Source: an uncultured Actinomycetota bacterium (GTDB taxonomy: Bacteria > Actinomycetota > Humimicrobiia > Humimicrobiales > Humimicrobiaceae). Taken from it: a stretch of 64,000 nt of DNA. A program made the position numbers and the translations under genes. The DNA is taken from contig CAZSXW010000006.1 in assembly GCA_964610385.1 (NCBI GenBank), forward strand, positions 17,534 through 81,533. Reading direction: 5' to 3'. A model generated the notes under the pieces. It did not search any database and was not told where the DNA came from. It saw nothing but the letters and a program-made list of their open reading frames with translations. Below, piece by piece: positions 13,915 through 64,000 of the stretch (position 1 is the first letter of the stretch; the number at the start of each line of letters is the position of its first letter).

Positions 13915-14348
13915 TTCTTCTTCCTTAACTCTCTCAAAATTTCTCTAATTTTTTGGGGAGTCAAGTTGTCGTAAACTTTCTCATTAATCATCATTGCCGG
14001 TGCTTCATTACATATCCCCAGACAACTTACCTCTTCTATAGTAAACTTGCCATCGGCTGTTGTTTCTCCAACTTTAATCTTTAATTCTTTCTCTAAAACT
14101 TTAAAAATACTCTTCGACCCCATTAGGTGACAGGGTCCACTGTCGCAAATCCGAATTACATACTCACCCCGCGGTTTTAAGCTAAACAGTGAGTAAAAAG
14201 TAGCCACACCATAAACCTCGCTATAACTTAAACCTGCCTCCTGAGCAATAAGCTTCAACTTATATTCAGTAATGTAATTATGCTTGTTTGCCCTTTGCTC
14301 TTTGTTTAAAAGGGCAATGATATCTTTTTCTTTATTTCTTAACTTCAT
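13911..14348 (-). CDS. NuoE-like [2Fe-2S] thioredoxin-like ferredoxin subunit
   Basis: Cys pattern CDSGPC...CLGICNEAP; 4-bp overlap with the nuoF-like gene. Confidence 0.85.
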   Translation of the reverse strand: MKLRNKEKDIIALLNKEQRANKHNYITEYKLKLIAQEAGLSYSEVYGVATFYSLFSLKPRGEYVIRICDSGPCHLMGSKSIFKVLEKELKIKVGETTADGKFTIEEVSCLGICNEAPAMMINEKVYDNLTPQKIREILRELRKKK

Positions 14349-14350
14349 TT

Positions 14351-17047: not shown

Positions 17048-17302
17048 ATTCTTCTTTAAATAATTTAATTTTAACAGTTTATCCTGAAGCTCTGAGTTTT
17101 TTTAAGCTTGGCTGGATTTATCTTATCGCAATTATTTTCTATTTTCTTCTTTTTATCTTTCAAAATATTATCTAAAACAAGATGATAAAAGTAAAGAGTT
17201 TAAAATTATTAGTTAGAATTAAAGTTTTAAATTATAAATGATATTATTAAAAGTATCGGATGCAATTATATAAGAAAATATTACAGAATTTATAAAATCA
17301 TA

Positions 17303-18487: not shown

Positions 18488-18508
18488 CCGGGAGTGTATA
18501 ATAGGACC

Positions 18509-18802
18509 ATGAAAAACTTCGAAGATATCGGCAGTATAATAGAAGGTATTATAAAAGATACGGATGTCAGACACAGATTAACCGAATCCAAGATTTTTAT
18601 TCATTGGAGAGAGATCGTTGGTACTGAAATATCCAAGAAAGCGAAGCCTGAAAGGATAAGCAGGGGAACGTTGTATGTATCTGTAACAACTTCCATATGG
18701 GCAAATGAACTAAGTCTTATGTCTGATAAACTTATTGAGAAAATCAATTCATTTATTGGTGGAGAATTGGTTAAAAAGATAAGATTTAAGCAAAATCTTT
18801 AG
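18509..18802 (+). CDS. DUF721 (YaaB/RemB-like) protein
   Basis: Conserved recF-gyrB spacer gene; pattern ...FIHWREIVG...GTLYVSV...W.NEL. Start set at the internal ATG, which has a GGGAG Shine-Dalgarno sequence. Confidence 0.6.
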   Translation: MKNFEDIGSIIEGIIKDTDVRHRLTESKIFIHWREIVGTEISKKAKPERISRGTLYVSVTTSIWANELSLMSDKLIEKINSFIGGELVKKIRFKQNL

Positions 18803-18986
18803 CCCATTTTAGGCAAATTTATAGTGAAATATGGTATAATAATCGTATGCTAAAATAGTAGAATTATAAGTCTTTTTTATAAAAAATATTTACATTTGAG
18901 TAAGAAAGGGTAATGGATTCCAAGATATTTTTATTGTCTTCTTGTTACCCTTTAACAATATTCTAAAAAGTAAATTATACATTTAA

Positions 18987-20903
<1,917 letters not shown>

Positions 20904-20915
20904 TTGGGAGTATAA

Positions 20916-24467: not shown

Positions 24468-24544
24468 GGGCCTATAGCTCAGTTGGTTAGAGCGCATCCC
24501 TGATAAGGATGAGGCCTCTGGTTCGAGTCCAGATAGGCCCACCA
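24468..24544 (+). tRNA. tRNA-Ile (anticodon GAT)
   Basis: 77 nt including CCA: GGGCCTATAGCTCAGTTGGTTAGAGC... Anticodon loop CTGATAA; T-arm GGTTCGAGTCC. Confidence 0.9.
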
Positions 24545-24557
24545 GTTTACAGAATGT

Positions 24558-24633
24558 GGGGGTGTAGCTCAGCTGGGAGAGCGCCTGCCTTGCAAGCAGG
24601 AGGTCAGCGGTTCGATCCCGCTCATCTCCACCA
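24558..24633 (+). tRNA. tRNA-Ala (anticodon TGC)
   Basis: 76 nt including CCA: GGGGGTGTAGCTCAGCTGGGAGAGCGCC... Anticodon loop CTTGCAA; G3:U70 identity pair present. Confidence 0.9.
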
Positions 24634-46395: not shown

Positions 46396-47376
46396 TTGAA
46401 CAGCATGGACGACAAAGAGAGAGCCATAAATTTCTGGAAAGATAAAATTAAGGCCAGCGGTTTTAGGTTTACTGAAACTAGAAAAGCAATTCTTTATACT
46501 CTAATAGAGAATCCTGGAGAATATAATATAGAAGAATTACATTCTTTAGTTTGTGTCAAATATCCAAAAATCGGGATTGCTACAATTTACAGGGCTATGA
46601 AACTAATGGAGAAAATAGGTTTGGTAAATAAATATTATGATAATGAGAACATTAGATCTAATTACAGGCTTAATAATATTAGGACTTCAAAAACTTTTAA
46701 AAATTTTCAAAAGATGGAACAACATAGTTCTGTTCTAAAGAAAAATCATAAAACTGATTCACGAGATTACCATGATGTGCTCTCATTATCCGATACGGGT
46801 AGTAATTATAAGGATTTAAGGGAACCTGAAAGAATAAAGACACTCGAAAGACAGATGTCAATATGGTTAAAGGATTTAAATAAATTAAAAAGAGAAAAGG
46901 AGATAACATTGGAAGATATGGTCAAGGACCTGACAAAAATTGATGAGATTCTCAAAAACCACGGTAATGAAAGAAGTAATCTAATTCAGATTCTGCTGGA
47001 TATCCAGAAAGATTGCAATTGGCTCCCAAAACATGTTTTATTTTATATTAGCGATAAATTAAAAATACCACTGACTAATGTCTATAATATTGCTTCGTTT
47101 TACAAGTATTTTAATTTAGAACCCCAGGGTAAATACAATATAGTAGTATGTATGGGTACTGCCTGTTATGTAAGGGGTAGTATGAATCTGCTGCAGAGGA
47201 TTGTGAATGTTCTGGGAGTCGATCCGGGAGACACTACTAATGATTTAAGATTTACATTAGATACTGTTAATTGTCTGGGGGCTTGTGCCCTGGGGCCGGT
47301 TATGATGGTGGGAAATAAATACTATACAAATCCTTCTACCAAAAAATTAAAGCAGATATTTAGTAAATTTGATTGA
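46396..47376 (+). CDS. fusion protein: N-terminal Fur-family winged-helix DNA-binding domain plus C-terminal NuoE-type [2Fe-2S] thioredoxin-like ferredoxin domain
   Basis: N-terminus FTETRKAILYTLIENPGEYNIEELHSLV...KIGIATIYRAMKLMEKIGLV matches the Fur/PerR DNA-binding domain. C-terminus CMGTAC...CLGAC carries the NuoE Cys pattern. Alternative ATG start at 46405. Confidence 0.6.
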   Translation: MNSMDDKERAINFWKDKIKASGFRFTETRKAILYTLIENPGEYNIEELHSLVCVKYPKIGIATIYRAMKLMEKIGLVNKYYDNENIRSNYRLNNIRTSKTFKNFQKMEQHSSVLKKNHKTDSRDYHDVLSLSDTGSNYKDLREPERIKTLERQMSIWLKDLNKLKREKEITLEDMVKDLTKIDEILKNHGNERSNLIQILLDIQKDCNWLPKHVLFYISDKLKIPLTNVYNIASFYKYFNLEPQGKYNIVVCMGTACYVRGSMNLLQRIVNVLGVDPGDTTNDLRFTLDTVNCLGACALGPVMMVGNKYYTNPSTKKLKQIFSKFD

Positions 47377-53596: not shown

Positions 53597-53650
53597 CACT
53601 GTACAAGGTGGCTGAGCATTATGGTCAGGATTAAAATTATTCATAAATCA
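53597..53650 (+). repeat. dispersed intergenic repeat, degenerate copy R0
   Basis: CACTGTACAAGGTGGCTGAGCATTATGGTCAGG shares the 5' part (ACTGYACAAGGTGGCTG) with copy R5. Confidence 0.45.
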
Positions 53651-53706
53651 ATGTATTAAAGTTTTAGGATAATACTGATTAACTATGCTATTATAGTCTA
53701 TATATT

Positions 53707-53961
53707 TTGTTATTTATTTTTAATGCAAATATGAACGAAAGAAAAGAATTTCTTTATTATATTGAAGTGAAAGAAAGAGATGGTAAAAGAACCAGATATC
53801 CGATTTATAGAGATGATAAGAATTACTATATTCGTGACCACCTCGTTAAGGCAGGCAAAAGTATAGAAGATGAGATTAAAGATTTCTTTAAAGTTGAAGT
53901 CATAGGACCAATATTAGAAAAGCCTATTCATCAGGATCTAAAATTTAAAAAAACAGAATAA
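53707..53961 (+). CDS. hypothetical small protein
   Basis: ORF only. Confidence 0.25.
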   Translation: MLFIFNANMNERKEFLYYIEVKERDGKRTRYPIYRDDKNYYIRDHLVKAGKSIEDEIKDFFKVEVIGPILEKPIHQDLKFKKTE

Positions 53962-54018
53962 TTAATAATATTGATCCAAACTTAATATCCTAATCCTTTC
54001 TATCCGAAAGATTTAAAA

Positions 54019-54537
54019 TCAGAAATTAAGCTTTCCGAACAATGCATTAGCTAATAAACCTGCTAGTGGCGGGAAAAAGAATGTACATGCCAGGCGTACA
54101 AGTGTAAACTTCCACCCCAATATTCCTATATCCATTGGTAATCTTCCAATTGCCCATAATGACCATCCAGTCAGAAAAGCGACCATAGTCCCAACACTTG
54201 CACCAGTCCTTAAAAAACCACCTGCTAAAGGTAAGCTGACATAGGGTCCTCCAGGCATGATACCGCCTGCAGCAGTTCCTATAAATATTCCCCTTAGACC
54301 GGAACCTTCTCCAATCCATCTGGAAATTATTTCCATCGGGACCAATGCCTGTATCATTCCGGCTATAATAAAGGCAAAAATAAGCAGTGGTAGTATTTCA
54401 ATAGTCATATTCAAGGCTGCTTTCAGACCGGTTATATGCTGGCCTTGCCCCCTGAAATAACCGACTAGTATCAGTGCTACAGCTATTGCCCCCATTATCG
54501 ATGTTGATATTAACATTTGTGATTTCCTCCTGCTCAT
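54019..54537 (-). CDS. predicted permease (DUF318/ArsP-like), short form
   Basis: Four TM helices with Gly-rich loops (GIMPGGPYVSLPLAGG). Confidence 0.45.
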   Translation of the reverse strand: MSRRKSQMLISTSIMGAIAVALILVGYFRGQGQHITGLKAALNMTIEILPLLIFAFIIAGMIQALVPMEIISRWIGEGSGLRGIFIGTAAGGIMPGGPYVSLPLAGGFLRTGASVGTMVAFLTGWSLWAIGRLPMDIGILGWKFTLVRLACTFFFPPLAGLLANALFGKLNF

Positions 54538-54772
54538 AGTCCTCTCTCCATCTTTAGGATTTAATTACTTAAAGACTGTATTTTAAATATAATTAGTAAT
54601 ATTTTATAAATTAAACCCTTACATTGAAACAGCAATTATTTTTTATCACCTCTGATTCTGTAGACTTCCATTTAAAGACCTCATCTTCTTAAATATAAAA
54701 GAAATATGAGTTTTTATTATAATACTAATAAAAATTAATAGTAAATTAGATAATAAAAAAATAAATAATGAT

Positions 54773-54858
54773 TGACTTGGTATAGTAGACGAAGTTAGAA
54801 CTGAATTAATAGGCTTGAATGGGGGGGGGATATTTTTAATCCTGAATTTAATTATTAA
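54773..54858 (+). repeat. dispersed intergenic repeat copy R1
   Basis: GGTATAGTAGACGAAGTTAGAACTGAATTAATAGGCTTGAATGGGGGGGGATATTTTTAATCCTGAATTTAATTATTA. Confidence 0.6.
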
Positions 54859-54960
54859 AAAATAGTCAGCATTATTATTCCAGCACAAATACACTTTTTT
54901 ACCAAATAAAAAAAGTATTATAATTACATTAAGTTTGATTACAAAATAATCTAAATTAAT

Positions 54961-55464
54961 ATGGTTAGATTTTATAAAAAACTACTCAATACGGGACTGC
55001 TTTTTTCCATTGCCTGTATACTTTCTATTCTATCTTTCCCCGTTAACCCTCTTGCTATACTTAAAGTAATAAATCCTCTTGATATAAAGGTCTTATGGTA
55101 TATTGGTTGGATAGTCTGGTCAGCTGGTATGGTTCTTATAGGTTTTGCTTACTATTATATATACATAAGAAAGATAAAAGTATTAATTAAGCAGGGAATT
55201 TATAAAGTTATCCGCCATCCTATGTATCTGGGCTGGATTTTAGCAGTATTTATTGCAACTATTTTTCTTTACCAGCATTGGGTATTTATTGTTATTGGAA
55301 TTCCTGGAGTATTATCAATTTATTTAATTTCAATTAGAGAAGAAATCTCTAATATTAGGCGGTTTGGTAAAAGCTATAAAAACTATATAGAAAATGTACC
55401 CAGAATGAACATTATTTTAGGAATTATAAGATTATTAAGAAGAAGGAATAAAATTCCAAACTAA
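54961..55464 (+). CDS. isoprenylcysteine carboxyl methyltransferase (ICMT/PEMT) family protein
   Basis: RHPMYLG hallmark motif in a polytopic membrane protein. Confidence 0.7.
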   Translation: MVRFYKKLLNTGLLFSIACILSILSFPVNPLAILKVINPLDIKVLWYIGWIVWSAGMVLIGFAYYYIYIRKIKVLIKQGIYKVIRHPMYLGWILAVFIATIFLYQHWVFIVIGIPGVLSIYLISIREEISNIRRFGKSYKNYIENVPRMNIILGIIRLLRRRNKIPN

Positions 55465-55518
55465 AGAAAGATTTAAAAAGCCTGAACATTAATATAAATA
55501 TGAGGTATTTATCTTAAG

Positions 55519-55595
55519 TGTGGCTGGGGCAGTGAACGACGTTAGAACCAGTTTATTGAGGTTAAATGAAGGTTTTTTATATTAGAATTGAGCTT
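55519..55595 (+). repeat. dispersed intergenic repeat copy R2
   Basis: GTGGCTGGGGCAGTGAACGACGTTAGAACCAGTTTATTGAGGTTAAATGAAGGTTTTTTATATTAGAATTGAGC. Confidence 0.6.
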
Positions 55596-56174
55596 TTAAA
55601 GTCTCATTTTCCTATTCTTGAGCATTCCTGTAAAGAAATTCCACATAGGAACCTTCTTCATATATTCAATATATTCTCTACCAAACTTTTTAATATTATA
55701 GTTATCCTCAACTTTTGAGGCTATATAAAATAATATAACTGCAGCAATACCAATTATTATTAGAACAATTGCCTGATAGGCGAATAAAAAACTTATGGTA
55801 ACCAAGGAAAGTCCCAGGTAGAGTGGGTGTCTTAGTATTTTAAATATTCCTTTATGTATCATCTTGGTAGTATCTTCCAAACCCGATGCTGGCTTGCCAA
55901 TACGCTTTAAGCTTACAAATGAAGATATTATTAAAAATATACCAGTCACAAAAAAAATTATGGATATATACTGCAGATAGGTAATACCAGCTCTCTTTAA
56001 CATAAAATTATCAAAGCTGGTTAATCCCAGAACAATTACAGAAATGAAAAGACCTATACCGATTTCAGCAAATATTTCAAATCTTTTACGCTTTTTTGTA
56101 CCTCTGGGTAAACATCTTACCAGGATTGTTATTGCTAATATGCAGATTATTATATATGCAATAAAGGGCTTCAT
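55596..56174 (-). CDS. isoprenylcysteine carboxyl methyltransferase (ICMT/PEMT) family protein, second paralogue
   Basis: RHPLYLG motif; opposite strand to its neighbours. Confidence 0.7.
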   Translation of the reverse strand: MKPFIAYIIICILAITILVRCLPRGTKKRKRFEIFAEIGIGLFISVIVLGLTSFDNFMLKRAGITYLQYISIIFFVTGIFLIISSFVSLKRIGKPASGLEDTTKMIHKGIFKILRHPLYLGLSLVTISFLFAYQAIVLIIIGIAAVILFYIASKVEDNYNIKKFGREYIEYMKKVPMWNFFTGMLKNRKMRL

Positions 56175-56262
56175 TTTTATATAAAAAGTTAATGAATAAT
56201 TTTGATTATTATCATATACTCATAATCAATATCTTTCAATTTTATGAATTCTTTTATTTTTT

Positions 56263-56345
56263 GGCTGGGGACAGTGGACAAAGTTAGAACCGCTTTATTG
56301 GGCTTAAATGAAGATATTTTTATACCATAATTGAGTATTAGTTAG
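56263..56345 (+). repeat. dispersed intergenic repeat copy R3
   Basis: GGCTGGGGACAGTGGACAAAGTTAGAACCGCTTTATTGGGCTTAAATGAAGATATTTTTATACCATAATTGAGTATTA. Confidence 0.65.
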
Positions 56346-56569
56346 CTAAAACATCCTAATTTGTTGAAAGTTGTATGTCTATAATAAAAGTATTGTAATT
56401 TTTTTACAATAATTATATATTTTTATGGTGTGTAAAATCATTTAGAAGCTTGGAAACTTTTTTTATGGTTACTTGAGTACAGCAGAACTGATTATGAAAC
56501 TAACTAAATAGCTGGTTTTATATTTTTAAATAAATTTTTAGACTAATAATTTTTTAAAAATATGTTCTT

Positions 56570-57886
56570 ATGAAATTAGAGCTAATTGTCCCTGCTACGC
56601 AAGAGAATCTCCTAAATCGGAAGAAGACACCAGGACCACACCTAGGTCTAGCAATGGTTGCCGCCCTGACCCCACCAGAGGTTGAAGTCTCAATAACTGA
56701 TGAGAATGTCACAGATATTGATTTCCAAAAGCAAATTGACTTAGTTGGAATAACAGCAATGACTATTACGGCGGATAGAGCCTATAAGATCGCTGATACT
56801 TTCAGAGAAAGAGGGGTTAAAGTTATCTTGGGAGGTAGTCACCCTAGTGCTCTTCCTAAAGAGGCAAGTCAATACGCTGATGCTGTAGTAATCGGGGAAG
56901 CTGAGGGAATTTGGACAAATGTAATCGAGGATTTTAAGGCAAACAAGCTAAAAAAGATATATAGACAACGCGAGCGGCCCAGCTTGCTCAACTTGCCTAT
57001 CCCCCGGCGAGATTTATTTATCGATGGAGCATATCTCTTCATGAACTCAATCTCAACCACTAGAGGCTGTCCCCATGCCTGCTCTTTCTGCTCAGTTACT
57101 TCATTCTTCGGCAATACTTATCGCTGCCGTCCTATAGAGGAAATACTCAAGGAAATCGAAACAATGAATTATAAGAGACTTATGTGGTTTATTGATGACA
57201 ATATTGTGGGCAATCCTAGGTTTGCTAAAGAGCTCTTTCGTGCCCTTATTCCTTTCAAACTAAAGTGGGCTGGCCAAGCCTCAGTTACTATTGCAAAAGA
57301 TGACGAATTACTCAAACTTGCATCTGAAAGTGGCTGTATGATCCTACTTATTGGGTTTGAGACATTATCTCCGGATAATCTAGTAGCAATGGGAAAAAGG
57401 GTGAATGTAGTAGACAAATACGAAATGGTAATCAGAAAGATCCACTCCTATGGCATTGCCATCCACGGCTTCTTTATCCTGGGATTAGACGATGATGATG
57501 AAGATGTTTTCGAGCGTACTGTCCGCTTTGCCCAGAGCATGCAGCTTGAGAGTGCTCAATTTGCTTGGCCCACACCATATCCAGGTACTGCCCTATACGA
57601 ATCTTTGGATAAGGCTGGACGATTAATTACTAAAAGTTGGTCACAGTATGAGTCTAACGTTGTATTTGAACCAAAGCTAATGTCACGGGATATTCTGAAA
57701 AGGGGACGTGACTGGGTTTGGAAAGAGTTCTATAGCTTGCCCTCTATTTGGAGGAGATTAGGAATTACACACCGTTATTTAGTTCCACTCTGGACGCTTA
57801 ATCTTTATTACCGCTCCTTCTGGCGAAGAAAATCCAAAGTTATTAAAGATAGCCACAAGGTCAAATCCCAATTAGTCTCTGGGTAG
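56570..57886 (+). CDS. B12-binding-domain radical SAM protein (class B)
   Basis: N-terminal B12-binding/Rossmann-like region plus the radical SAM CxxxCxxC (CPHACSFC). GC content is clearly higher than in the flanks. Confidence 0.8.
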   Translation: MKLELIVPATQENLLNRKKTPGPHLGLAMVAALTPPEVEVSITDENVTDIDFQKQIDLVGITAMTITADRAYKIADTFRERGVKVILGGSHPSALPKEASQYADAVVIGEAEGIWTNVIEDFKANKLKKIYRQRERPSLLNLPIPRRDLFIDGAYLFMNSISTTRGCPHACSFCSVTSFFGNTYRCRPIEEILKEIETMNYKRLMWFIDDNIVGNPRFAKELFRALIPFKLKWAGQASVTIAKDDELLKLASESGCMILLIGFETLSPDNLVAMGKRVNVVDKYEMVIRKIHSYGIAIHGFFILGLDDDDEDVFERTVRFAQSMQLESAQFAWPTPYPGTALYESLDKAGRLITKSWSQYESNVVFEPKLMSRDILKRGRDWVWKEFYSLPSIWRRLGITHRYLVPLWTLNLYYRSFWRRKSKVIKDSHKVKSQLVSG

Positions 57887-58065
57887 TATTAAAAGTTGGT
57901 CTGATTTGATTAGAAACCAAATTATATAAAAGATCATTCTAATAATTACGGGTAATCATCTCTAGTTGAAACTAAAGCTATATCTGGATGACTTACACGA
58001 AATTCTTCTTCTTTGATTGGTGAATCAGATTAGGTAAAATAATAGAAATAGTTTGAAAAATGACA

Positions 58066-58110
58066 ATTGGCTGAGCATTGTGGTCAAGATAAAATGAGAC
58101 ACTATAAAAA
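58066..58110 (+). repeat. dispersed intergenic repeat, degenerate/partial copy R4
   Basis: TTGGCTGAGCATTGTGGTCAAGATAAAATGAG resembles R0. Confidence 0.4.
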
Positions 58111-58390
58111 AAGTCTAACTTAGAAGAAAAATCTTATGTATATAAATTCAAGTTCATAAATAATAGACTTTCTCAAAGTGACCTTTCTTACCCTTTCTTA
58201 TTTTACTGGCCCGAATCCCAACATTCAAACTGAACTAGTTTTTAAGGAACCTTCAAGATGGCTTAGATACTAAATTAAAAACTATACTAAAGAATGGGGA
58301 AAGGTAGGTTATATGCTTAAATAATTTAATAAAAAAACGACTCATCTTTTAAAACTCTTATTGAAATTAGGGAGGTTGGTCACTTTTTTT

Positions 58391-58485
58391 ACTGCACAAG
58401 GTGGCTGGGGACAGTAGACAAAGTTCAAACCAGATTATTGGGTTCAAACGGGAATATTTTTATACCTGAATTAAGTTTTTGCCTA
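58391..58485 (+). repeat. dispersed intergenic repeat copy R5
   Basis: ACTGCACAAGGTGGCTGGGGACAGTAGACAAAGTTCAAACCAGATTATTGGGTTCAAACGGGAATATTTTTATACCTGAATTAAG. Confidence 0.65.
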
Positions 58486-58585
58486 AGATAGTTAAATATA
58501 AAAAATTTGCATTCTCATAATAATCCTGTTTTAATCTACTGATGAGAATCTGCATCTTAATTTAAAAATATCTGGAGGTAAACAA

Positions 58586-59338
58586 GTGGATATCTGGAAA
58601 TATTACGATATCACCCATAAGAAACACATAATCTGTAATCCCATGAGTAAATTTAAACTTGATGGATTATTTTTATTGTTGGATATAAAAACAGGCTCCA
58701 AAGTTTTAGATATTGGTTGTGGCAAAGGAGAGTTCCTGATAAGACTTACTGAATTATTTAATATTCATGGTACAGGAGTTGATATTTCACCTTATTTTAT
58801 AAAAGATTGTAAAAGGAAGAAAAGCGAAAGAATTCCTAAATCCGATGTCAAATTTTTAGAAATGGATGGCGCCAAATATAAACCTGAAAACAATGAATTG
58901 TTTGACTTAACCATATGTCTTGGCGCAAGCTTTGTTTACAATGGATTTACAGGAACAATAAATGCATTAAAGAAAATGACAAAACCAAAGGGGCTGCTTA
59001 TTATAGGAGAGCCCTATTGGTTAAAAGACCCGCCTGAAGAATATCTTAAAATGAGTGGAATAAATAAAGAGGAGTTTAATAACCATTTTAAAAATATAGA
59101 TATTGCTGAAAAAGAAGGACTAAATTGTATATACACACTTGTAAGTAATCATGATGACTGGGACCATTATGAAACACTTCAATGGTGGTCAGCATATGAT
59201 TATGTAACCCTCAATCCTAATGATTCAGATAACTCTGAATTGTTGGAGAAGATAAAAAAAGCAAAAACAGAGTATCTATTATACGGTAGAGACACTCTTG
59301 GCTGGGCAATATATATTTTTAAAAGACAATTACAATAA
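58586..59338 (+). CDS. class I SAM-dependent methyltransferase
   Basis: Motif I VLDIGCGKGEF and a post-I acidic residue. Confidence 0.65.
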   Translation: MDIWKYYDITHKKHIICNPMSKFKLDGLFLLLDIKTGSKVLDIGCGKGEFLIRLTELFNIHGTGVDISPYFIKDCKRKKSERIPKSDVKFLEMDGAKYKPENNELFDLTICLGASFVYNGFTGTINALKKMTKPKGLLIIGEPYWLKDPPEEYLKMSGINKEEFNNHFKNIDIAEKEGLNCIYTLVSNHDDWDHYETLQWWSAYDYVTLNPNDSDNSELLEKIKKAKTEYLLYGRDTLGWAIYIFKRQLQ

Positions 59339-59385
59339 ATAACTACTAATTATCCCCCCAGTTTATAAAAGAGGTATAAAGTTAA

Positions 59386-59470
59386 GCTTAGCTGGGGATA
59401 GTAGACAAAGTTAGAACCGCATTATTAGGCATAAGTGAGGATATTTATATACCAGAATTGAGTTATTAAT
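59386..59470 (+). repeat. dispersed intergenic repeat copy R6
   Basis: AGCTTAGCTGGGGATAGTAGACAAAGTTAGAACCGCATTATTAGGCATAAGTGAGGATATTTATATACCAGAATTGAGTTATTA. Confidence 0.65.
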
Positions 59471-59673
59471 ACTTTCTTATCATCAAAGCGTCAAATCACT
59501 AAATATATCTATCTTTTTAACGGATTACAAAAAATAGAATAATTATATTTGGTAGAACATCATTGATAATCCGATCTTTATCTATTTGCTATTCTATACC
59601 TTTTAGTGACATAATCACTGAATATTGACATAATTGCATCAAGCATTTTAGTAGACATATTAAATGGAGAAAA

Positions 59674-60453
59674 ATGGGCAGAGTTCAAAAAATTAATTGC
59701 TACCTTTTCCTAATCTTATTTTTAATACTTATTATAACTTTTTTTACCCGTAATAATATACGTAATGTAGACGAGATCACGGATGAGGTTATAAATCAAC
59801 CTGTTCAAAAAGAAATATCAAATACGGAGGAAATTGAATTTAAAAAGGATGGCTATCTATGGCAGCTAATACCTCTTTATGATTATGAGATAAGCGGTCT
59901 TGTTATTGGCAGAATGAATTATCAGATATTCAGTATCAATAAATATACCAGTTTATTCCCTATTGACTTGGGTTTGATCTGGGGCAATAATGTTGCCAAT
60001 AAAGTCTATCAGGATAAGCGAATCAAATTCATGCAGGACTCCCGCTGGTGCTGGGTCTGGTGGGATGGAGATGCCGTTTTCAACCTCAATGAATTCTCTA
60101 ATAACCATTTATTCACTAAGGAAAAGGATTTGAGCGATGAAGCTAAAAAAATTAACCGCGGCGATCAGATAACAATCAAAGGAAAACTGGTGAATATTAT
60201 AGCTACCCCACTAGAAGATAATGGGATATCCGGACAAAATACTATTACCTGGAAATCGAGTACGACCAGAAAAGATAATGGCACGGGAGCATGTGAAATT
60301 ATCTATGTCGAGGATATAAAAGTATTAAAAAAAGGCAATATGCTCTCCCGTTTTTTATTCTGGTTTAGTTTTTATGGATTGATTTTTATAATTATTTGGA
60401 GCATATCTTATTTTCTATATAGTATTAATATGCAGAAAAAAACTGATTCCTGA
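59674..60453 (+). CDS. hypothetical protein with N- and C-terminal TM helices
   Basis: ORF with a good hydrophobic N-terminal anchor; no recognisable family. Confidence 0.35.
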   Translation: MGRVQKINCYLFLILFLILIITFFTRNNIRNVDEITDEVINQPVQKEISNTEEIEFKKDGYLWQLIPLYDYEISGLVIGRMNYQIFSINKYTSLFPIDLGLIWGNNVANKVYQDKRIKFMQDSRWCWVWWDGDAVFNLNEFSNNHLFTKEKDLSDEAKKINRGDQITIKGKLVNIIATPLEDNGISGQNTITWKSSTTRKDNGTGACEIIYVEDIKVLKKGNMLSRFLFWFSFYGLIFIIIWSISYFLYSINMQKKTDS

Positions 60454-60589
60454 CTCATTTGAAAGTTCGAAAGTTGAGCAAAAAAGACAAATAATTAATT
60501 TTGTACTTACGAACTTACAACTTAGAGGCAAAAAGCTAGAATATACCTTGAAAACCCCCTTTGATGTACTAGTAGATTTAGGTTACCAT

Positions 60590-60675
60590 TCAAGCTGGCT
60601 GGCCACTGTGGACGATGTTAAAACCAAGATCTTACTGTTAAATGAGGATATTTTTATACCTGAATTATCAGGTTA
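60590..60675 (+). repeat. dispersed intergenic repeat copy R7
   Basis: CAAGCTGGCTGGCCACTGTGGACGATGTTAAAACCAAGATCTTACTGTTAAATGAGGATATTTTTATACCTGAATTATCAGG. Confidence 0.6.
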
Positions 60676-60783
60676 ACCCCTATATCTAATACTAAACTCT
60701 ATATAACGATAAATCCTTTCAATTACAAATCCAAATAAGGTAATATATTTTTATATCAGGTATTAATTTAGGAGTATCTATAA

Positions 60784-61974
60784 ATGAAAAATCACAAAAG
60801 CTCTTATTTGATAATAACTATTCTTTTGGTTACTATTCTATTACTCTCATTTGTAAGCTGCAAACAGGATCCCTCTACCCTGAGGACTTATCAGCCTCCC
60901 GAAAATATTGAGGATGGCCTTAAAACAGGTACCCTTGAAGAAGTAAATATGGATAAGGTTTTAATCGAAAAGGCTATAAGCGATATAAACAGGGGTAAAT
61001 ACGGTGAAGTTCATTCACTTCTTATATATAAGGATGGGAAACTGGTAGTGGAGGAGTATTTTACCGGTCATAAGTATCAGTGGGATGCTCCGGGTCATCA
61101 CGGGGACCTTATTGTCTATAACAGGGATACTTTACATAGAATTATGTCTGATACAAAAAGCATTGTATCGATCCTTATAGGACTGGCAATAGAAAATGGT
61201 TATATAGAGAGCGTTGACCAGTCTATATTTGATTATCTGCCGGAACATCAGGACTTAAAAACAGATGGCAAGGATAAAATTACTATAGAAAATCTTTTAA
61301 CTATGGAATCCGGGCTTAAGTGGGATGAATGGAGCGCATCTCTAAGTAGTACATCCAATGACGCAATTGGAATCTGGTTTTCTGATAAAGACCCGGTTAT
61401 TTTTGTTTTAGAAAGGCCTTTTGTATATGAACCGGGAACAAGATTTATCTATAGTGGTGGTAATATGGAAGTCCTTGGTGAGATCATACAAAATGCTACC
61501 GGAATGAATGTCGAGGAATTTGCCGGAAAGTATTTATTCGAACTGCTGGGAATCAATTCATTTACCTGGGAAGAGTTTGGCGAATATTATAATTGTGCCG
61601 GCGGTTTATCACTTACACCAAGAGATATGCTAAAAATCGGTGTAACATTTTTAAATAATGGAGCCTGGGATGGAAAACAGGTGATATCAGAACAATGGGT
61701 TAAGAAAAGCGCTTTTCCATTTGGAAACAATACGGGGATCAATGTCCCCGGTACTGACTCTAAAAGGATGGGTTATTCCTATAGCTGGTGGACAAAAGAT
61801 TACTCCCTTTCAGGCAAGGAAATAAATATTTATTATGCCGGCGGATGGGGAGGACAGAGGATTATGGTCCTGCCTGAAGTAAACTCTGTAATTGTCTTTA
61901 CTGGCGGTAATTATACTTCTACAGTAAGGACCTTTAAGATTCTTGAGAAATATATTTTTCCTGCTATTAAGTAA
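60784..61974 (+). CDS. beta-lactamase-family serine hydrolase lipoprotein
   Basis: Lipobox FVSC; SxxK motif (SDTK), a YSGGN (YxN-like) motif and an HGDLIVYN region. Confidence 0.65.
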   Translation: MKNHKSSYLIITILLVTILLLSFVSCKQDPSTLRTYQPPENIEDGLKTGTLEEVNMDKVLIEKAISDINRGKYGEVHSLLIYKDGKLVVEEYFTGHKYQWDAPGHHGDLIVYNRDTLHRIMSDTKSIVSILIGLAIENGYIESVDQSIFDYLPEHQDLKTDGKDKITIENLLTMESGLKWDEWSASLSSTSNDAIGIWFSDKDPVIFVLERPFVYEPGTRFIYSGGNMEVLGEIIQNATGMNVEEFAGKYLFELLGINSFTWEEFGEYYNCAGGLSLTPRDMLKIGVTFLNNGAWDGKQVISEQWVKKSAFPFGNNTGINVPGTDSKRMGYSYSWWTKDYSLSGKEINIYYAGGWGGQRIMVLPEVNSVIVFTGGNYTSTVRTFKILEKYIFPAIK

Positions 61975-62094
61975 TCTCTTTTAATTTTTAAGGGATGGAT
62001 TATTAAGATATTAACGATATATTTATCTTGAGTGGGTGCCCCCGGGTTGCGAATTTTCGAACCAATTTTTAGGTAAATTAAAAAATATTATTAA

Positions 62095-62180
62095 TATAGT
62101 TAGAGATAGTGGACGAATTTAGAACCGCTTTATCTAGCTTAGAGGGTGATATTTTTATACCTGAATTGAGTTATTAGATT
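62095..62180 (+). repeat. dispersed intergenic repeat copy R8
   Basis: AGATAGTGGACGAATTTAGAACCGCTTTATCTAGCTTAGAGGGTGATATTTTTATACCTGAATTGAGTTATTA. Confidence 0.6.
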
Positions 62181-62303: not shown

Positions 62304-63182
62304 ATGGAACTAATAATTGATAATGTCAGTAAACTCTATAAGGGTAAGATATGGGGACTGAAAGGTTTTAGCATTAAAATAAATACTGGAATTTTAGGAT
62401 TATTAGGGCCGAATGGTGCCGGTAAATCAACTTTGATGCGAATACTTGCTACTATTACAAAACCAACAGAAGGCAATGTAAACTGGAATGGTATTGATAT
62501 CTTAAAATATCCAAATAAGGCTAGAGCTGTACTCGGTTATCTTCCTCAAGATTTTGGTATTTACCCCAATCTTAGTGCCATCGAATTTTTGGAATATATA
62601 GCTGCTATTAAAGGATTGTATGGCAGGGAAGCAAGAAAACGAATCGATGATTTATTACAAATACTAAACCTTAATGAGGTTAGAAAACAACCGCTAAGTA
62701 GCTATTCAGGTGGGATGAAACAGAGAATAGGCATTGCACAAGCGCTCTTGAATGATCCAAAACTTCTTATAGTTGATGAACCGACTGCTGGATTAGATCC
62801 CGAAGAGAGAATACATTTTAGAAATATACTTTCAGATCTCTCTGGCGAAAGAATAGTAATTCTCTCGACTCATATAGTATCGGATATTGAAGCCTCTGCC
62901 ACTAGTATTGCAATAATCAATAAAGGCAAACTAGTAATTTATTCTTCACCTGAAAAACTAATATCCCAGGCTGAAGAAAAAGTCTGGGAGCTTAACATAC
63001 CAAGTAAGGATTTGACAAAAATTAAGGACAATTATCTTATTAGTAGCTCCGTGCAAAATAAAAATGGAGTCCAGATTAGAATAATTGGTGACAATTCTCC
63101 TGCTAGAGATGCTAGACCTGTGTCACCTAACTTGGAAGATAGCTATCTGTATTTTATCTCCACTTATAGAAAACAAAAATAA
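62304..63182 (+). CDS. ABC transporter ATP-binding protein
   Basis: Walker A GPNGAGKST, signature YSGGMKQRIGIAQAL, Walker B LIVDEPTAGLD. Confidence 0.85.
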   Translation: MELIIDNVSKLYKGKIWGLKGFSIKINTGILGLLGPNGAGKSTLMRILATITKPTEGNVNWNGIDILKYPNKARAVLGYLPQDFGIYPNLSAIEFLEYIAAIKGLYGREARKRIDDLLQILNLNEVRKQPLSSYSGGMKQRIGIAQALLNDPKLLIVDEPTAGLDPEERIHFRNILSDLSGERIVILSTHIVSDIEASATSIAIINKGKLVIYSSPEKLISQAEEKVWELNIPSKDLTKIKDNYLISSSVQNKNGVQIRIIGDNSPARDARPVSPNLEDSYLYFISTYRKQK

Positions 63183-63183
63183 A

Positions 63184-64000
63184 ATGAAATATTTTAGAAT
63201 CCTCTATAATTCAATTCGCACTGACATACTAGGAAGATTAAGAAGTTATCTTTTCTTAATTATTTTGGGTGCAACCATTTTTATTGCTTTTATATCTGTG
63301 CCGCCAAGTGGGGCTAATTATATAGTACTTAGTTTGGATAATATTAGAGGAATTTATAATTCTGCGTGGATTGGTGGAGCAATAGCAATTGTTGTTTCTA
63401 CAATGCTGTCTTTACCTGCTTTTTACTTGGTAAAAGGCGTTATTAAAAGAGATAAGCAGACGGGTGTGGGGCAAATCATAGCAACTACTCCTTTAAGTAA
63501 AGTACTATATATCTTTGGAAAGATACTGGGAAATTTCTTATTTTTGTCAATAATGGTTGCAGTAATAGCATTATCTGCCGGTATTATGCAAATCATAAGA
63601 GGTGAAGAAATAACGATAAACCTATGGAAATTGTTATCACCCTTTTTATTTATAGTATTACCTACAATGTTTTTTATATCTGCACTGGCAGTATTTTTTG
63701 AGACTATATCCTGGTTAAGTGGAAGTTTTGGAAATGTGATCTACTTCTTTTTATGGTTAGGTCTTTATCTTATATATCCAGTGTCATCAATGGCAAGGAG
63801 TGGTCAGGCAGTCTTTGACCCATTAAAGGAAGTAACGGGAATGACGATTCCTTTATCAGCTATGTCTAAAGCAGCAGCTACTAGCTTCCCGAATTATGAA
63901 GGAGGTTCAGGACTAATAAAATTCAATGTTCAAGTAAAAACCTTTATTTGGGAAGGTATAGATTGGAATTTAGAAATTATATACAGCCGTCTGATATGGG
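63184..64000 (+). CDS. ABC-2 type transporter permease, 3' partial (runs off the window end)
   Basis: ATG 1 nt after the ATPase stop. The frame is open for about 272 codons to the window end with multiple TM helices. It is absent from the ORF track because no stop codon falls inside the window. Confidence 0.5.
   Translation, partial: MKYFRILYNSIRTDILGRLRSYLFLIILGATIFIAFISVPPSGANYIVLSLDNIRGIYNSAWIGGAIAIVVSTMLSLPAFYLVKGVIKRDKQTGVGQIIATTPLSKVLYIFGKILGNFLFLSIMVAVIALSAGIMQIIRGEEITINLWKLLSPFLFIVLPTMFFISALAVFFETISWLSGSFGNVIYFFLWLGLYLIYPVSSMARSGQAVFDPLKEVTGMTIPLSAMSKAAATSFPNYEGGSGLIKFNVQVKTFIWEGIDWNLEIIYSRLIW

What the first reader, a model, noticed from the sequence alone, without database searches (positions are those of the whole stretch)
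53597..62180. Array of at least 9 co-oriented conserved 80-90 bp repeats separating single-gene units: an integron-like (CALIN/VCR-like) cassette array
The same element occurs in nine consecutive intergenic spacers, all on the + strand, at about 53597, 54773, 55519, 56263, 58066, 58391, 59386, 60590 and 62095.
- The consensus is roughly GGCTGGGGACAGTGGACAAAGTTAGAACCGCTTTATTGGGCTTAAATGAGGATATTTTTATACCTGAATTGAGTTATTA.
- The units between copies are 0.7-2.1 kb. Each carries one or two genes of unrelated function: THEP1 NTPase, a small ORF plus permease, two ICMT methyltransferases, a class B radical SAM, a SAM methyltransferase, a membrane DUF, a beta-lactamase-like hydrolase, and an ABC ATPase with its permease. 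Two of the units are inverted.
- No copy is seen in the first 53 kb.
- Highly homogeneous repeats punctuating a run of promoter-poor, functionally unrelated cassettes is how sedentary chromosomal integrons with VCR-type attC sites look, or clusters of attC sites lacking an integrase.
- No integrase is visible in the window, and by eye I cannot confirm canonical R''/R' core sites (RYYYAAC / GTTRRRY). Every copy contains GTTAGAAC-like motifs.
- The alternative is a lineage-specific REP/MITE-like element, or a shared promoter/UTR module.
Basis: partly seen in the sequence, partly recalled or inferred. Interest (0 to 1): 0.85.

Follow-up and report, generated by a model that had tools for sequence, protein, structure and literature searches.

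The report
Serine-recombinase gene-cassette array, not an integron
The repeats are real and do bound mobile single-gene cassettes, but they are not integron attC hairpins: they are copies of the last ~85 bases of a large serine recombinase gene, which mimic the 3' end of tRNA-Gln, so this looks like an undescribed integron-like gene-capture system in uncultured low-GC Actinomycetota.

Summary
The observation largely holds. Seven co-oriented ~83-nt units lie between 54.8 and 62.2 kb, plus two shorter variants and one further site type. None occurs in the first 53 kb.

The attC/integron reading fails. No unit folds better than shuffled sequence on either strand, no consensus hairpin exists, no IntI is present and Rfam gives nothing.

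The unit reads as an ORF tail, W-L-G-T-V-D-K-V-R-T…I-F-I-P-E-L-stop. Copy 60596 is fused in frame to the 3' remnant of a large serine recombinase (LSR) gene.

In a related metagenome contig (L176) a full-length 558-aa LSR ends in exactly such a unit. Seven one- or two-gene cassettes follow, separated by co-oriented sites. The run ends at an antisense tRNA-Gln whose 3' end shares the unit's head, TGGCTGGGGA.

In 156 related loci:
- Adjacent units are co-oriented in 126 of 127 pairs.
- Median spacing is 1.1 kb.
- Cargo genes point either way (136 same strand, 114 opposite).

Cassettes are shared between species and occur in a different order in another contig.

Best reading: an LSR-driven, integron-like cassette array whose recombinase is lost or degenerate in this window. 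The crossover point is unresolved because breakpoints scatter, and no activity has been shown.

The parts
53609..53660 (+). B-type site (TGGCTGAGCATTATGGTCAGGAT…). It is the left-most site of the array, 15 nt after the stop of the THEP1/NTPase_1 gene, and is preceded by TGT ACA AGG (C-T-R), like the end of the LSR gene.
   Evidence: B sites lie at the left of arrays in 5 of 6 loci; LSR fragments P0007 and P0026 end in this tail
53707..53961 (+). Cassette gene: an 84-aa ORF with no Pfam match.
   Evidence: 78% nt identity to L010 6933-7208, which lies between two A units in another species
54019..54537 (-). Inverted cassette gene: an ArsP_1-type permease covering only half of the Pfam profile.
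54773..54858 (+). A unit 1. The W codon reads TGA, and the unit carries a 9-G insertion at 54822-54830.
54961..55464 (+). Cassette gene: PEMT/ICMT-family methyltransferase.
55521..55600 (+). A unit 2.
55596..56174 (-). Inverted cassette gene: PEMT/ICMT-family. Its 3' end abuts unit 2.
   Evidence: the same cassette is 81% identical in L012 and is flanked by A units there
56262..56340 (+). A unit 3, the copy closest to the consensus.
56570..57886 (+). Cassette gene: B12-binding radical SAM enzyme.
   Evidence: the Logan contig L181 carries this gene alone and breaks at the sites on both sides
58068..58115 (+). B-type site 2.
58402..58483 (+). A unit 4, preceded by TAC TGC ACA AGG (Y-C-T-R), which resembles the LSR 3' end.
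   Evidence: L024 is 94% identical from this unit rightwards but unrelated to its left
58586..59338 (+). Cassette gene: SAM-dependent methyltransferase.
   Evidence: 83% identical in L043, where it is flanked by D-type sites
59389..59470 (+). A unit 5. The W codon reads TAG.
59674..60453 (+). Cassette gene: a 259-aa membrane protein.
   Evidence: 96% identical in L103, which has a different cassette order
60401..60598 (+). 3' remnant (about 65 codons) of a large serine recombinase gene, in frame with the next unit (…PFDVLVDLGYHSSW|LATVDDVKT…).
60596..60677 (+). A unit 6, which forms the C-terminal tail of the LSR remnant.
60784..61974 (+). Cassette gene: beta-lactamase-fold protein.
   Evidence: homologous cassettes in L032 (73% identical) and L103 (71% identical)
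62034..62085 (+). D-type site (TGGGTGCCCCCGGGTTGCGAATTTTCGAACCAA…) with a near-palindromic CGAAWTTTCG core. It forms a D·A doublet with the next unit.
62097..62177 (+). A unit 7. The W codon reads TAG.
62304..64000 (+). Cassette with an ABC ATPase (62304-63182) and a permease that runs off the window end. It is followed by another A unit in contigs of the same strain.

Best explanation
**What it is**
The region 53.6 to beyond 64 kb is a gene-cassette array built and reshuffled by site-specific recombination of a large serine recombinase (LSR). No integron integrase is involved.

**Anatomy of the site**
- The repeated ~83-nt A unit is the LSR's recombination site.
- The unit is also the last ~27 codons of the LSR gene.
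- Its head, TGGCTGGGGA, and its GTT-NN-AACC motif imitate the CCA end, acceptor stem and T-loop of tRNA-Gln read in antisense.

**The intact platform**
This is seen in a relative, L176. The order there is LSR gene, then site, then cassette, then site, repeated, ending at an antisense tRNA-Gln gene.

**Inferred mechanism**
- Circular cassettes that carry one site insert at any resident site and can be excised again.
- Each insertion next to the LSR gives the enzyme a new but equivalent C-terminal tail. This would explain why the sites keep a mild coding signature.

**State of this window**
- The head LSR is absent. Only a 65-codon remnant survives, at 60401-60598.
- The cassettes are therefore either mobilised in trans by an LSR elsewhere in the genome, or the array is currently frozen.

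**Shown versus inferred**
- Shown: site anatomy, the physical link to the LSR gene, strict polarity, the platform in a relative, and cassette sharing and reordering.
- Inferred: that the LSR catalyses the exchanges, the position of the crossover, and the circular intermediate.
For: 1. **The unit is the tail of an LSR gene.**
   - It reads W-L-G/A-T-V-D-K/D-V-R/K-T…I-F-I-P-E-L-stop.
   - Copy 60596 is fused in frame to a fragment whose homologues (profile search, 2991 hits) are the C-terminal ~105 aa of ~500-aa proteins carrying Resolvase, Recombinase and Zn_ribbon_recom domains.
2. **A full-length LSR ends in an A unit.** This is the 558-aa protein P0173 in L069/L176.
3. **L176 shows the whole platform.**
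   - Sites lie at 11586 (A), 12982 (D), 13674 (A), 14344 (D), 15311 (D) and 16669 (A), all on the + strand.
   - They separate a PKD-like gene, DUF6790, HicBA, Rce1-like (inverted), ADH (inverted) and DUF4214.
   - A complete antisense tRNA-Gln(TTG) follows at 18166-18240, with 3' end TGGCTGGGGAGAGAGGATTCGAACC. Core genes ksgA, tatD and metG come next.
4. **A different LSR lineage repeats the pattern.** In L180 the last 87 nt of the LSR gene recur 958 nt downstream at 91% identity, around a single inverted gene.
5. **The pattern holds across 156 non-redundant loci.**
   - Adjacent units are co-oriented 126 times and opposed once.
   - Median spacing is 1142 nt.
   - The next gene is on the same strand 136 times and on the opposite strand 114 times.
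   - The conserved block starts sharply at the T of TGG.
6. **Cassettes are shared between species in different contexts**. L103 carries the window's membrane-protein cassette at 96% identity, but placed after rather than before the beta-lactamase-like cassette. 70 unit pairs share only the downstream flank and 172 share only the upstream flank.
7. **Recognisable LSR or LSR-remnant sequence is rare.** It occurs in only about 8 of the ~160 loci, and median spacing is shorter than an LSR gene. Most cassettes therefore never carried their own recombinase.
8. **All four site types are co-oriented and positionally ordered.** B lies at the left. C, which is the tRNA-Gln 3' end, lies at the right: A-then-C 16 and D-then-C 9, against C-then-A 3.
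Against: - No recombinase activity, circular cassette or empty site has been observed.
- The window has no intact LSR, and its right end, where a tRNA would be expected, is not in the window.
- Breakpoints in eleven recent recombinant pairs are not at one nucleotide. They scatter from -2 to about +75 of the unit, with a cluster between TGG and +12 and two cases near GTT-NN-AAC. A precise serine-recombinase crossover alone would not give this.
- Canonical LSRs recombine attP with attB and do not act on two like sites (PMC5499577), so relaxed specificity has to be assumed.
- There is no obvious dyad symmetry in the A unit, and the left flank of units is barely conserved.
- The coding signature is modest.
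   - Codon-position entropy is 0.64, 0.62 and 0.87.
   - 31 of 201 units carry a frame-0 stop, against 38±3 in a column-shuffle null.
   - About 10% of units have lost the W codon.
- Only one full LSR-headed array of this exact site type was recovered.
Confidence: 0.6

Rival explanations
1. The array arose by tandem accretion of once-autonomous integrative elements, as in tycheposon islands or composite SCC islands. Each 'cassette' would be the decayed remnant of a separate LSR-bearing element that integrated at the tRNA-like site. The units would be the left-end att scars, and the LSR genes would have been deleted afterwards.
For: - An LSR remnant sits inside the window array.
- The databases hold very many truncated LSR 3' fragments. 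All of them are cut at the same internal point, I-T-Q-D-E-Y.
- Islands built in this way, with partial tRNA repeats and fragmented integrases, are documented (10.1101/2020.12.28.424599).
- Related LSRs sit at the end of a phage-like element next to a tRNA (L178).
Against: - Only about 8 of the ~160 loci with units show any LSR or LSR-remnant sequence.
- Median unit spacing of 1142 nt is shorter than the 1.6-kb LSR gene.
- In L176 a single LSR heads seven cassettes.
- Canonical attP×attB integration would destroy the target rather than regenerate a full site each time.
Confidence: 0.2
2. The units are simply portable homology. Cassettes would be exchanged and reordered by general (RecA-dependent) homologous recombination or gene conversion between the ~83-nt repeats. 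The LSR link would be historical, meaning the repeat descends from an LSR gene end, and not mechanistic.
For: - Breakpoints in recent recombinants scatter along the whole unit.
- Linkage of the unit to its downstream flank decays gradually.
- There is no intact LSR in the window.
Against: - 61-87% identity over about 80 nt is a poor substrate for RecA.
- Homology alone does not explain several features: strict co-orientation (126:1); the coexistence of four site types sharing only the TGGCTG head; their fixed positional order B…A/D…C; the tRNA-Gln terminus; and nucleotide-level invariance of GTT-NN-AAC and other third-codon positions across species.
Confidence: 0.1
3. It is a classical integron cassette array or CALIN. 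The units would be attC sites recombined as folded bottom strands by an IntI tyrosine recombinase lying outside the window.
For: - The overall architecture is co-oriented repeats between small unrelated gene units.
- A GTTAGAAC motif loosely resembles GTTRRRY.
Against: - No consensus structure is found on either strand.
- Fourteen single-strand DNA folds are indistinguishable from shuffles, with MFE of -1.2 to -6.6 kcal/mol.
- There is no inverse core partner for GTTAGAAC.
- About 45% of cargo genes are inverted.
- The physically linked recombinase is a serine recombinase.
- No Phage_integrase domain is found in the window.
Confidence: 0.02
4. The units are a shared promoter or 5'UTR, a terminator, a structured RNA, or a REP/MITE-type dispersed repeat.
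For: - The units are intergenic and AT-rich at the 3' end (TATTTTTATACC).
- The gap to a co-oriented downstream gene is typically about 176 nt.
Against: - Downstream genes are on the opposite strand in 114 of 250 cases.
- There is no promoter or terminator enrichment.
- There is no Rfam match at E<=1, and no structure or covariation.
- There are no terminal inverted repeats.
- Copy number is zero in 53 kb of core sequence against 7 in 8 kb.
Confidence: 0.03

Closest known systems
Integrons (IntI / attI / attC cassette arrays, including sedentary chromosomal integrons and CALINs)
   Same: - A recombinase-headed platform followed by an array of co-oriented sites.
- The sites separate mostly single-gene, functionally unrelated, horizontally shared cassettes.
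- Toxin-antitoxin cassettes are present (HicBA in L176).
- The array sits in the chromosome next to core genes.
   Different: - The recombinase is a large serine recombinase, not an IntI-type tyrosine recombinase.
- The sites are not hairpin-forming imperfect palindromes.
- The first site lies inside the 3' coding end of the recombinase gene instead of in an upstream attI.
- Cargo genes point either way about equally, so cassettes probably carry their own promoters.
- The array ends at a tRNA gene.
Staphylococcal cassette chromosome (SCC/SCCmec) composite islands mobilised by CcrAB/CcrC large serine recombinases
   Same: - The enzymes are LSRs.
- Arrays of modules are delimited by direct repeats of the att core.
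- Many modules lack their own recombinase and can be mobilised in trans (PMC11470126).
- The att core lies in the 3' end of a gene.
   Different: - The SCC target is the 3' end of rlmH and its core is about 15-18 bp. Here the site is about 83 nt, lies in the 3' end of the recombinase gene itself, and mimics tRNA-Gln.
- SCC modules are 3-60 kb multi-gene elements. Here the median unit is 1.1 kb with one gene.
- The host phylum and the LSR lineage are different. No Ccr orthology was tested.
tRNA-targeting genomic islands built by tandem integration (for example tycheposon islands of Prochlorococcus; Islander-type tDNA islands)
   Same: - The island sits at the 3' end of a tRNA gene.
- Co-oriented repeats derive from the tRNA 3' end.
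- Degenerate integrase fragments lie inside the island.
- Newer elements sit next to older ones (10.1101/2020.12.28.424599).
   Different: - Those repeats are true partial tRNA copies left by tyrosine (rarely serine) integrases, and each element normally brings its own integrase.
- Here only 10-13 nt of the repeat match the tRNA. The rest is the LSR tail.
- One LSR heads many integrase-less single-gene cassettes.
Canonical phage/ICE large serine integrases (Bxb1, phiC31, A118, TP901-1)
   Same: - The domain architecture matches: Resolvase + Recombinase + zinc ribbon with coiled coil.
- Relatives of the window's enzyme sit at the end of phage-like elements (L178).
   Different: - Canonical enzymes recombine dissimilar attP and attB sites into hybrid attL and attR, and do not act on like sites without an RDF (PMC5499577).
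- They leave no long direct repeats and no cassette arrays.

Membership tests
Integron / CALIN (attC array) | attC sites are imperfect inverted repeats (R''-L''…L'-R') whose bottom strand folds into a bulged hairpin. | tested here: not met
   - RNAalifold finds 0 pairs on the bottom strand and a -0.34 kcal/mol marginal stem on the top strand.
- DNA folds of 7 units on both strands give z-scores of -0.95 to +1.28.
Integron / CALIN (attC array) | Core sites RYYYAAC and GTTRRRY lie at the two ends of each site, and the cassette boundary lies in GTT. | tested here: not met
   - A single GTT-NN-AAC motif sits about 25 nt from the left edge, with no inverse partner at the other end.
- Breakpoints are not confined to it.
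Integron / CALIN (attC array) | An IntI-type tyrosine recombinase is associated with the array. It is absent in CALINs but present in related complete platforms. | tested here: not met
   - No Phage_integrase domain is found in any window ORF of at least 100 aa.
- The related platform L176 is headed by an LSR.
- The dedicated attC covariance model and IntI profile of IntegronFinder were not available.
Integron / CALIN (attC array) | An array of co-oriented sites separates small, mostly promoterless cassettes that are co-oriented with the array. | tested here: inconclusive
   - Sites are co-oriented 126:1 and median spacing is 1142 nt.
- However, 114 of 250 downstream genes are inverted.
Large serine recombinase site-specific recombination system | The recombinase has an N-terminal resolvase catalytic domain, a recombinase domain and a zinc-ribbon/coiled-coil domain. 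| tested here: met
   - Full-length relatives carry PF00239 + PF07508 + PF13408.
- In the window itself only the last ~65 codons survive.
Large serine recombinase site-specific recombination system | The recombination sites are physically and consistently associated with the recombinase gene. | tested here: met
   - The unit forms the 3' end of LSR genes or remnants in the window, L069/L176, L084, L103, and proteins P0001, P0010, P0025 and P0082.
- The analogous repeat occurs in L180.
Large serine recombinase site-specific recombination system | There is a defined 2-bp crossover flanked by imperfectly symmetric half-sites, and the products are precise. | tested here: inconclusive
   - Breakpoints scatter from -2 to +75, clustering at TGG…+12 and near GTT-NN-AAC.
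- No clear dyad symmetry is seen in the A unit. The D unit has a CGAAATTTCG palindrome.
Large serine recombinase site-specific recombination system | Catalysis of the exchanges by the enzyme. | not testable with these tools
   This needs an in vivo or in vitro recombination assay, or read-level detection of circular intermediates.
SCC-type elements | Integration into the 3' end of rlmH (orfX) by Ccr recombinases. | tested here: not met
   - There is no rlmH at the array borders.
- The platform ends at tRNA-Gln.
- Ccr orthology of the LSR was not tested.
tRNA-targeting tandem genomic islands | The island abuts a tRNA gene, and its repeats are copies of the tRNA 3' segment. | tested here: inconclusive
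   - In relatives the arrays end at tRNA-Gln, or at a 25-nt tRNA-Gln 3' fragment next to other tRNAs.
- A units share only the first 10-13 nt with it.
- The right end of the window array is not available.
REP / MITE dispersed repeats | Copies are dispersed in many intergenic regions, palindromic or with terminal inverted repeats, and occur in both orientations. | tested here: not met
   - Copy number is 0 in 53 kb against 7 in 8 kb.
- Orientation is 126:1.
- There is no self-complementarity.

The most novel reading that the evidence does not exclude
This would be a true serine-recombinase counterpart of the integron: a dedicated gene-capture platform in uncultured Humimicrobiia-like Actinomycetota, and possibly other phyla whose LSRs carry the same tail.
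- One LSR inserts, excises and shuffles integrase-less single-gene cassettes.
- It acts at ~83-bp sites that mimic the 3' end of tRNA-Gln and that also encode the enzyme's own exchangeable C-terminal tail.
- This would be convergent with integrons in architecture but unrelated to them in enzyme, site structure and chemistry.
Probability: 0.4. Interest if true: 0.85.

Novelty: new variant of a known kind. Interest (0 to 1): 0.72.

Why it matters
- Integrons are so far the only well-characterised system that stockpiles and reshuffles single-gene cassettes, and they depend on a tyrosine recombinase acting on folded single-stranded attC sites.
- A cassette platform run by a large serine recombinase on double-stranded, tRNA-mimicking sites would show that this genome architecture evolved more than once.
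- It would give a handle on accessory-gene flux in a poorly known, uncultured actinomycete lineage.
- It would add LSRs with unusual like-site specificity, which are of interest as genome-engineering tools.
- Practically, attC-based tools such as IntegronFinder will miss such arrays. The arrays also break short-read assemblies, so they are probably under-reported.

Tried and rejected
1. **attC hairpin.** Alignment folding and 14 single-strand DNA folds on both strands found nothing.
2. **Known RNA family.** Rfam at gathering threshold over the whole window, and at E<=1 over 53.4-64 kb, found only two unrelated tRNAs.
3. **Promoter or terminator module.** Consensus scans are at shuffle level and gene orientation is random.
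4. **Unit as the 3' end of a real tRNA or tmRNA on the minus strand.**
   - The head matches tRNA-Gln, but the T-arm cannot pair and ARAGORN finds nothing.
   - I kept only the weaker claim that the unit mimics tRNA-Gln.
5. **Unit as the C-terminus of an abundant long protein other than the LSR.** Pfam and NCBIfam gave nothing, and the word-indexed search returned only 22 short ORFs.
6. **Unit as an independent small gene.** There is no consistent start codon, stops lie 0-12 codons upstream, and the W codon is lost in about 10% of units.
7. **A single precise crossover.**
   - I first favoured the W codon and then GTT-NN-AAC.
   - Eleven recent recombinants and pooled mismatch profiles support neither exclusively.
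8. **Strain-level presence/absence variants.** Look-ups of THEP1, rSAM, ABC and the methyltransferase gave only identical arrangements, short contigs broken at units, or no record.
9. **Viral origin.** The site pattern has 0 matches in viral contigs.
10. **Prior description.** Four full-text searches found nothing describing LSR cassette arrays. The library is incomplete, so this does not prove novelty.

Full report
**1. Checking the observation**

A repeat search over 52-64 kb returns one family of seven co-oriented copies of about 76-83 nt. They sit at 54772, 55519, 56261, 58401, 59388, 60595 and 62096 and are 61-87% identical to the reference copy.

- An alignment with flanks shows a block of about 83 nt with sharp edges.
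- The core motif GACRAWGTTMRAAC occurs six times, against 0.15 expected by chance.
It reads TGGCTGAGCATTRTGGTCARGAT and shares only the first ~25 nt with the main unit. I call the main unit 'A' and this one 'B'.
- A third co-oriented site type, 'D', lies at 62034-62085 (GGTTGCGAATTTTCGAACCAA).
- An HMM of 54 units finds no copy in window 1-53000 even at E<=10.
- Contigs from the same strain show that another A unit follows the ABC permease just past the window end.
- The preceding 53 kb is ordinary core chromosome with no recombinase domain. It holds recF-gyrB-gyrA, a 2-oxoacid dehydrogenase complex, formate dehydrogenase-like and NuoEF-like genes, glmM and FUR.

**2. The units are not attC sites, RNAs, promoters or dispersed repeats**

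- RNAalifold finds no consensus pairing on the bottom strand and only a marginal -0.34 kcal/mol stem on the top strand.
- Folding each unit as single-stranded DNA on both strands gives -1.2 to -6.6 kcal/mol, with z-scores from -0.95 to +1.28 against shuffles.
- Rfam gives no match at E<=1 in 53.4-64 kb.
- Promoter-like and terminator-like sites are at shuffle level.
- A pattern scan of GTDB species representatives and of JGI metagenomes brought in more than 160 loci carrying the unit. The genome hits are almost all MAGs labelled uncultured Actinomycetota. Viral contigs gave none.
- Statistics over 156 non-redundant loci are as follows.
   - Adjacent units lie on the same strand in 126 pairs and on opposite strands in one.
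   - Median spacing is 1142 nt.
   - The gene after a unit is on the same strand 136 times and on the opposite strand 114 times.

Strict polarity of the site, combined with random polarity of the cargo, excludes a promoter, leader or terminator. Clustering excludes REP/MITE behaviour.

**3. What the unit is**

Aligned across species, the unit varies in a codon-like way. In one frame it reads (C-x-x-)W-L-G/A-T-V-D-K/D-V-R/K-T-x-L-L-x-L-N-E-D-I-F-I-P-E-L-S-F-stop.

- Most copies have a stop 0-12 codons upstream, so they are not genes.
- Copy 60596 has 68 open codons upstream. Those codons (…SSKVEQKRQIINFVLTNLQLRGKKLEYTLKTPFDVLVDLGYHSSW|LATVDDVKT…) match a set of short database ORFs.
- A profile of those ORFs, searched against 1.84 billion representative proteins, finds 2991 relatives. 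The full-length relatives are about 500 aa and carry the matched region at their extreme C-terminus.
- These full-length proteins have Resolvase, Recombinase and Zn_ribbon_recom domains, so they are large serine recombinases, or LSRs.
- tblastn with eight LSRs finds only this remnant in the window, at about 60401-60613.

The tails of these LSRs after the conserved W fall into two classes.

- The first class is W-L-P-G-x-D-S-N-R-R-P. This is the antisense translation of a tRNA 3' end, where TGG corresponds to CCA and GATTCGAAC to the T-loop.
- The second class is a 'native' tail, W-L-x-x-φ-D-x-φ-R-T-…. It is seen in very diverse, also high-GC, sequences.
- The window's unit belongs to the second class.

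The coding signal within the units is real but modest.

- Codon-position entropy is 0.64, 0.62 and 0.87.
- Frame-0 stops occur in 31 of 201 units, 21 of them at the W codon. The other two frames have stops in 193 and 200 of 201 units, and a column-shuffle null gives 38±3.
- Several third codon positions are nearly invariant, which points to constraint at the DNA level as well.

**4. The intact platform in a relative**

Metagenome contig Ga0351892_10010 (L069/L176) encodes a complete 558-aa LSR, P0173. Its last 27 codons are an A unit: …PLCRTW LGIVDEVRTFLLCVNEDIFIHKF…stop.

Downstream on the same strand come further sites at 12982 (D), 13674 (A), 14344 (D), 15311 (D) and 16669 (A). They separate seven small cassettes:

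- a PKD-like gene
- DUF6790
- HicB/HicA
- an inverted Rce1-like gene
- an inverted alcohol dehydrogenase
- a DUF4214 gene

The run ends at a complete tRNA-Gln(TTG) gene on the opposite strand, at 18166-18240. Its 3' end, read on the array strand, is TGGCTGGGGAGAGAGGATTCGAACC. The core genes ksgA, tatD and metG follow.

- The head of every site type (TGGCTGGGGA…) and the GTT-NN-AACC / TTCGAACC motif therefore imitate the CCA end, acceptor stem and T-loop of tRNA-Gln.
- The same 24-25-nt tRNA-Gln 3' fragment ('C' type) occurs 29 times in the loci. It is always co-oriented and typically lies at the right end of arrays: A-then-C 16 and D-then-C 9, against C-then-A 3. B sites lie at the left.
- In L009, L032 and L043 the C fragment sits just before unrelated antisense tRNA genes.
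- A 55%-identical LSR (P0174), which NCBI assigns to a Candidatus Humimicrobiaceae MAG, closes a phage-like element and ends in the C head next to tRNA-Leu.
- In a separate LSR lineage (P0192, L180) the last 87 nt of the gene are repeated 958 nt downstream at 91% identity, around one inverted gene. The arrangement 'recombinase tail = cassette boundary' is therefore recurrent.

**5. Cassette mobility**

Several window cassettes recur in other species' arrays:

- The methyltransferase is 83% identical in L043, where D sites flank it.
- The inverted ICMT gene is 81% identical in L012, flanked by A units.
- The beta-lactamase-like gene is 73% identical in L032.
- The 84-aa ORF is 78% identical in L010, between A units.
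- Unit 58402 plus its downstream sequence is 94% identical in L024, with an unrelated left flank.

Contig L103 carries the window's membrane-protein cassette at 96% identity, but after rather than before the beta-lactamase-like cassette.

Among all units, 70 pairs share only the downstream flank and 172 share only the upstream flank.

Recognisable LSR or LSR-remnant sequence occurs in only about 8 of the ~160 loci. Most cassettes are also shorter than an LSR gene. Both facts argue that cassettes are integrase-less passengers and not decayed autonomous elements.

**6. What remains unresolved**

The crossover point cannot be located.

- Conservation starts abruptly at the T of TGG. The left flank shows only a weak TGY at -9, present in 27% of units.
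- LSR remnants are found fused to A, B, C and D tails right after TGGCT.
- Pooled mismatch profiles link the unit mainly to its downstream flank, with a gradient.
- In eleven recent recombinant pairs the breakpoints lie anywhere from -2 to about +75. There is a cluster between TGG and +12, and two cases near GTT-NN-AAC.
- Either several crossover sites or site types are in use, or homologous exchange and gene conversion between units blur a site-specific signal.

Canonical LSRs do not recombine like sites (PMC5499577), so relaxed specificity of the kind known for Ccr enzymes has to be assumed.

No circular cassette, empty site or enzyme activity has been seen. Strain-level look-ups only returned identical arrangements or contigs broken at the units.

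**7. Comparison with known systems, and verdict**

- *Integrons.* Architecturally the array works like an integron, with a recombinase-headed platform and co-oriented sites around single-gene, exchangeable cassettes that include a toxin-antitoxin pair. It fails every molecular criterion of integron membership.
- *SCC composite islands.* Enzymatically it is closest to these. LSRs, direct att repeats and recombinase-less modules are shared (PMC11470126).
- *tRNA-anchored tandem islands such as tycheposons.* In genomic placement it is closest to these (10.1101/2020.12.28.424599).
- *Differences from all three.* The cassettes are about 1 kb. The site is about 83 nt, doubles as the recombinase's own C-terminal coding end, and only mimics the tRNA.

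Four full-text searches found no description of such arrays. The library is incomplete, so this is absence of evidence only.

I file it as a new variant of a known kind, site-specific-recombinase cassette and island accretion. There is an appreciable chance that it is a genuine serine-recombinase analogue of the integron.

In this particular window the recombinase is reduced to a remnant, so the array may be trans-mobilised or frozen.

Noticed in passing
window 24468-24633: A tRNA-Ile(GAT) and tRNA-Ala(TGC) pair sits 14 nt apart. This is the classic rRNA-operon spacer pair, but Rfam detects no rRNA anywhere in the 64-kb window.
   Followed up: no
window 46396-47376: A single 326-aa ORF combines an N-terminal FUR domain (aa 21-94) with a NuoE-type 2Fe-2S thioredoxin-like domain (aa 182-325). 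It lies directly upstream of a NuoF-like gene and a 2Fe-2S/4Fe-4S gene. This is an unusual regulator-electron-carrier fusion.
   Followed up: no
window 12625-23348: recF-gyrB-gyrA (17303-23348) has no dnaA or dnaN upstream. Instead, a divergently oriented FdhA-like molybdopterin oxidoreductase with NuoE/NuoF-like subunits lies at 12625-17047.
   Followed up: no
window 54822-54830: Unit 1 carries a 9-G homopolymer, a 5-nt insertion relative to all other units. Its W codon reads TGA.
   Followed up: no
database fragments P0003-P0022; L051 4732, L084, L086, L114, L117: Truncated LSR fragments from many independent contexts all begin homology at the same codon, I-T-Q-D-E-Y (ATTACTCAAGATGAATA). Each is preceded by unrelated sequence ending in GGAGG or GGTGG. 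This looks like a recurrent internal breakpoint or pseudo-site that deletes the catalytic 390 codons.
   Followed up: partly
L051 4708-5291: An LSR remnant plus the first 22 nt of an A unit is joined to the last ~85 codons of a recN gene (…ITNLPQIAAFADNHYFIDK…), directly upstream of pyrG. An array therefore appears to interrupt recN in that organism.
   Followed up: partly
window 62034-62177; 31 other loci: D and A sites form doublets with a fixed head-to-head distance of 89-96 nt in 31 of 54 D-then-A transitions (63 nt in the window). This suggests a composite site or an empty mini-cassette.
   Followed up: partly
all A units, positions +7/+8 after the T of TGG: These two positions are dimorphic, GG in about half of the units and CC in the other half, between near-invariant neighbours. 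They are a candidate central dinucleotide that would define two compatibility classes.
   Followed up: no
L042, L011, L046, L038, L045, L018, L019: Weaker copies of the unit (about 25-38 bits, e.g. WLRTVDDVRTAIERADRRIYIPELK) occur in MAGs labelled Parcubacteria, Saccharibacteria and Peribacteria and in unclassified bacteria. Some contigs carry two copies, so similar arrays may exist outside Actinomycetota.
   Followed up: no
window 57887-58585: About 700 nt hold no ORF of at least 60 aa. The stretch contains a B site (58068) and an A unit (58402) only 334 nt apart, which is effectively an empty cassette.
   Followed up: no
L001 end, L002 end, L181 both ends: Short-read (Logan) contigs of the window's own strain terminate inside units. 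Such arrays fragment assemblies and are likely under-represented in MAGs.
   Followed up: partly
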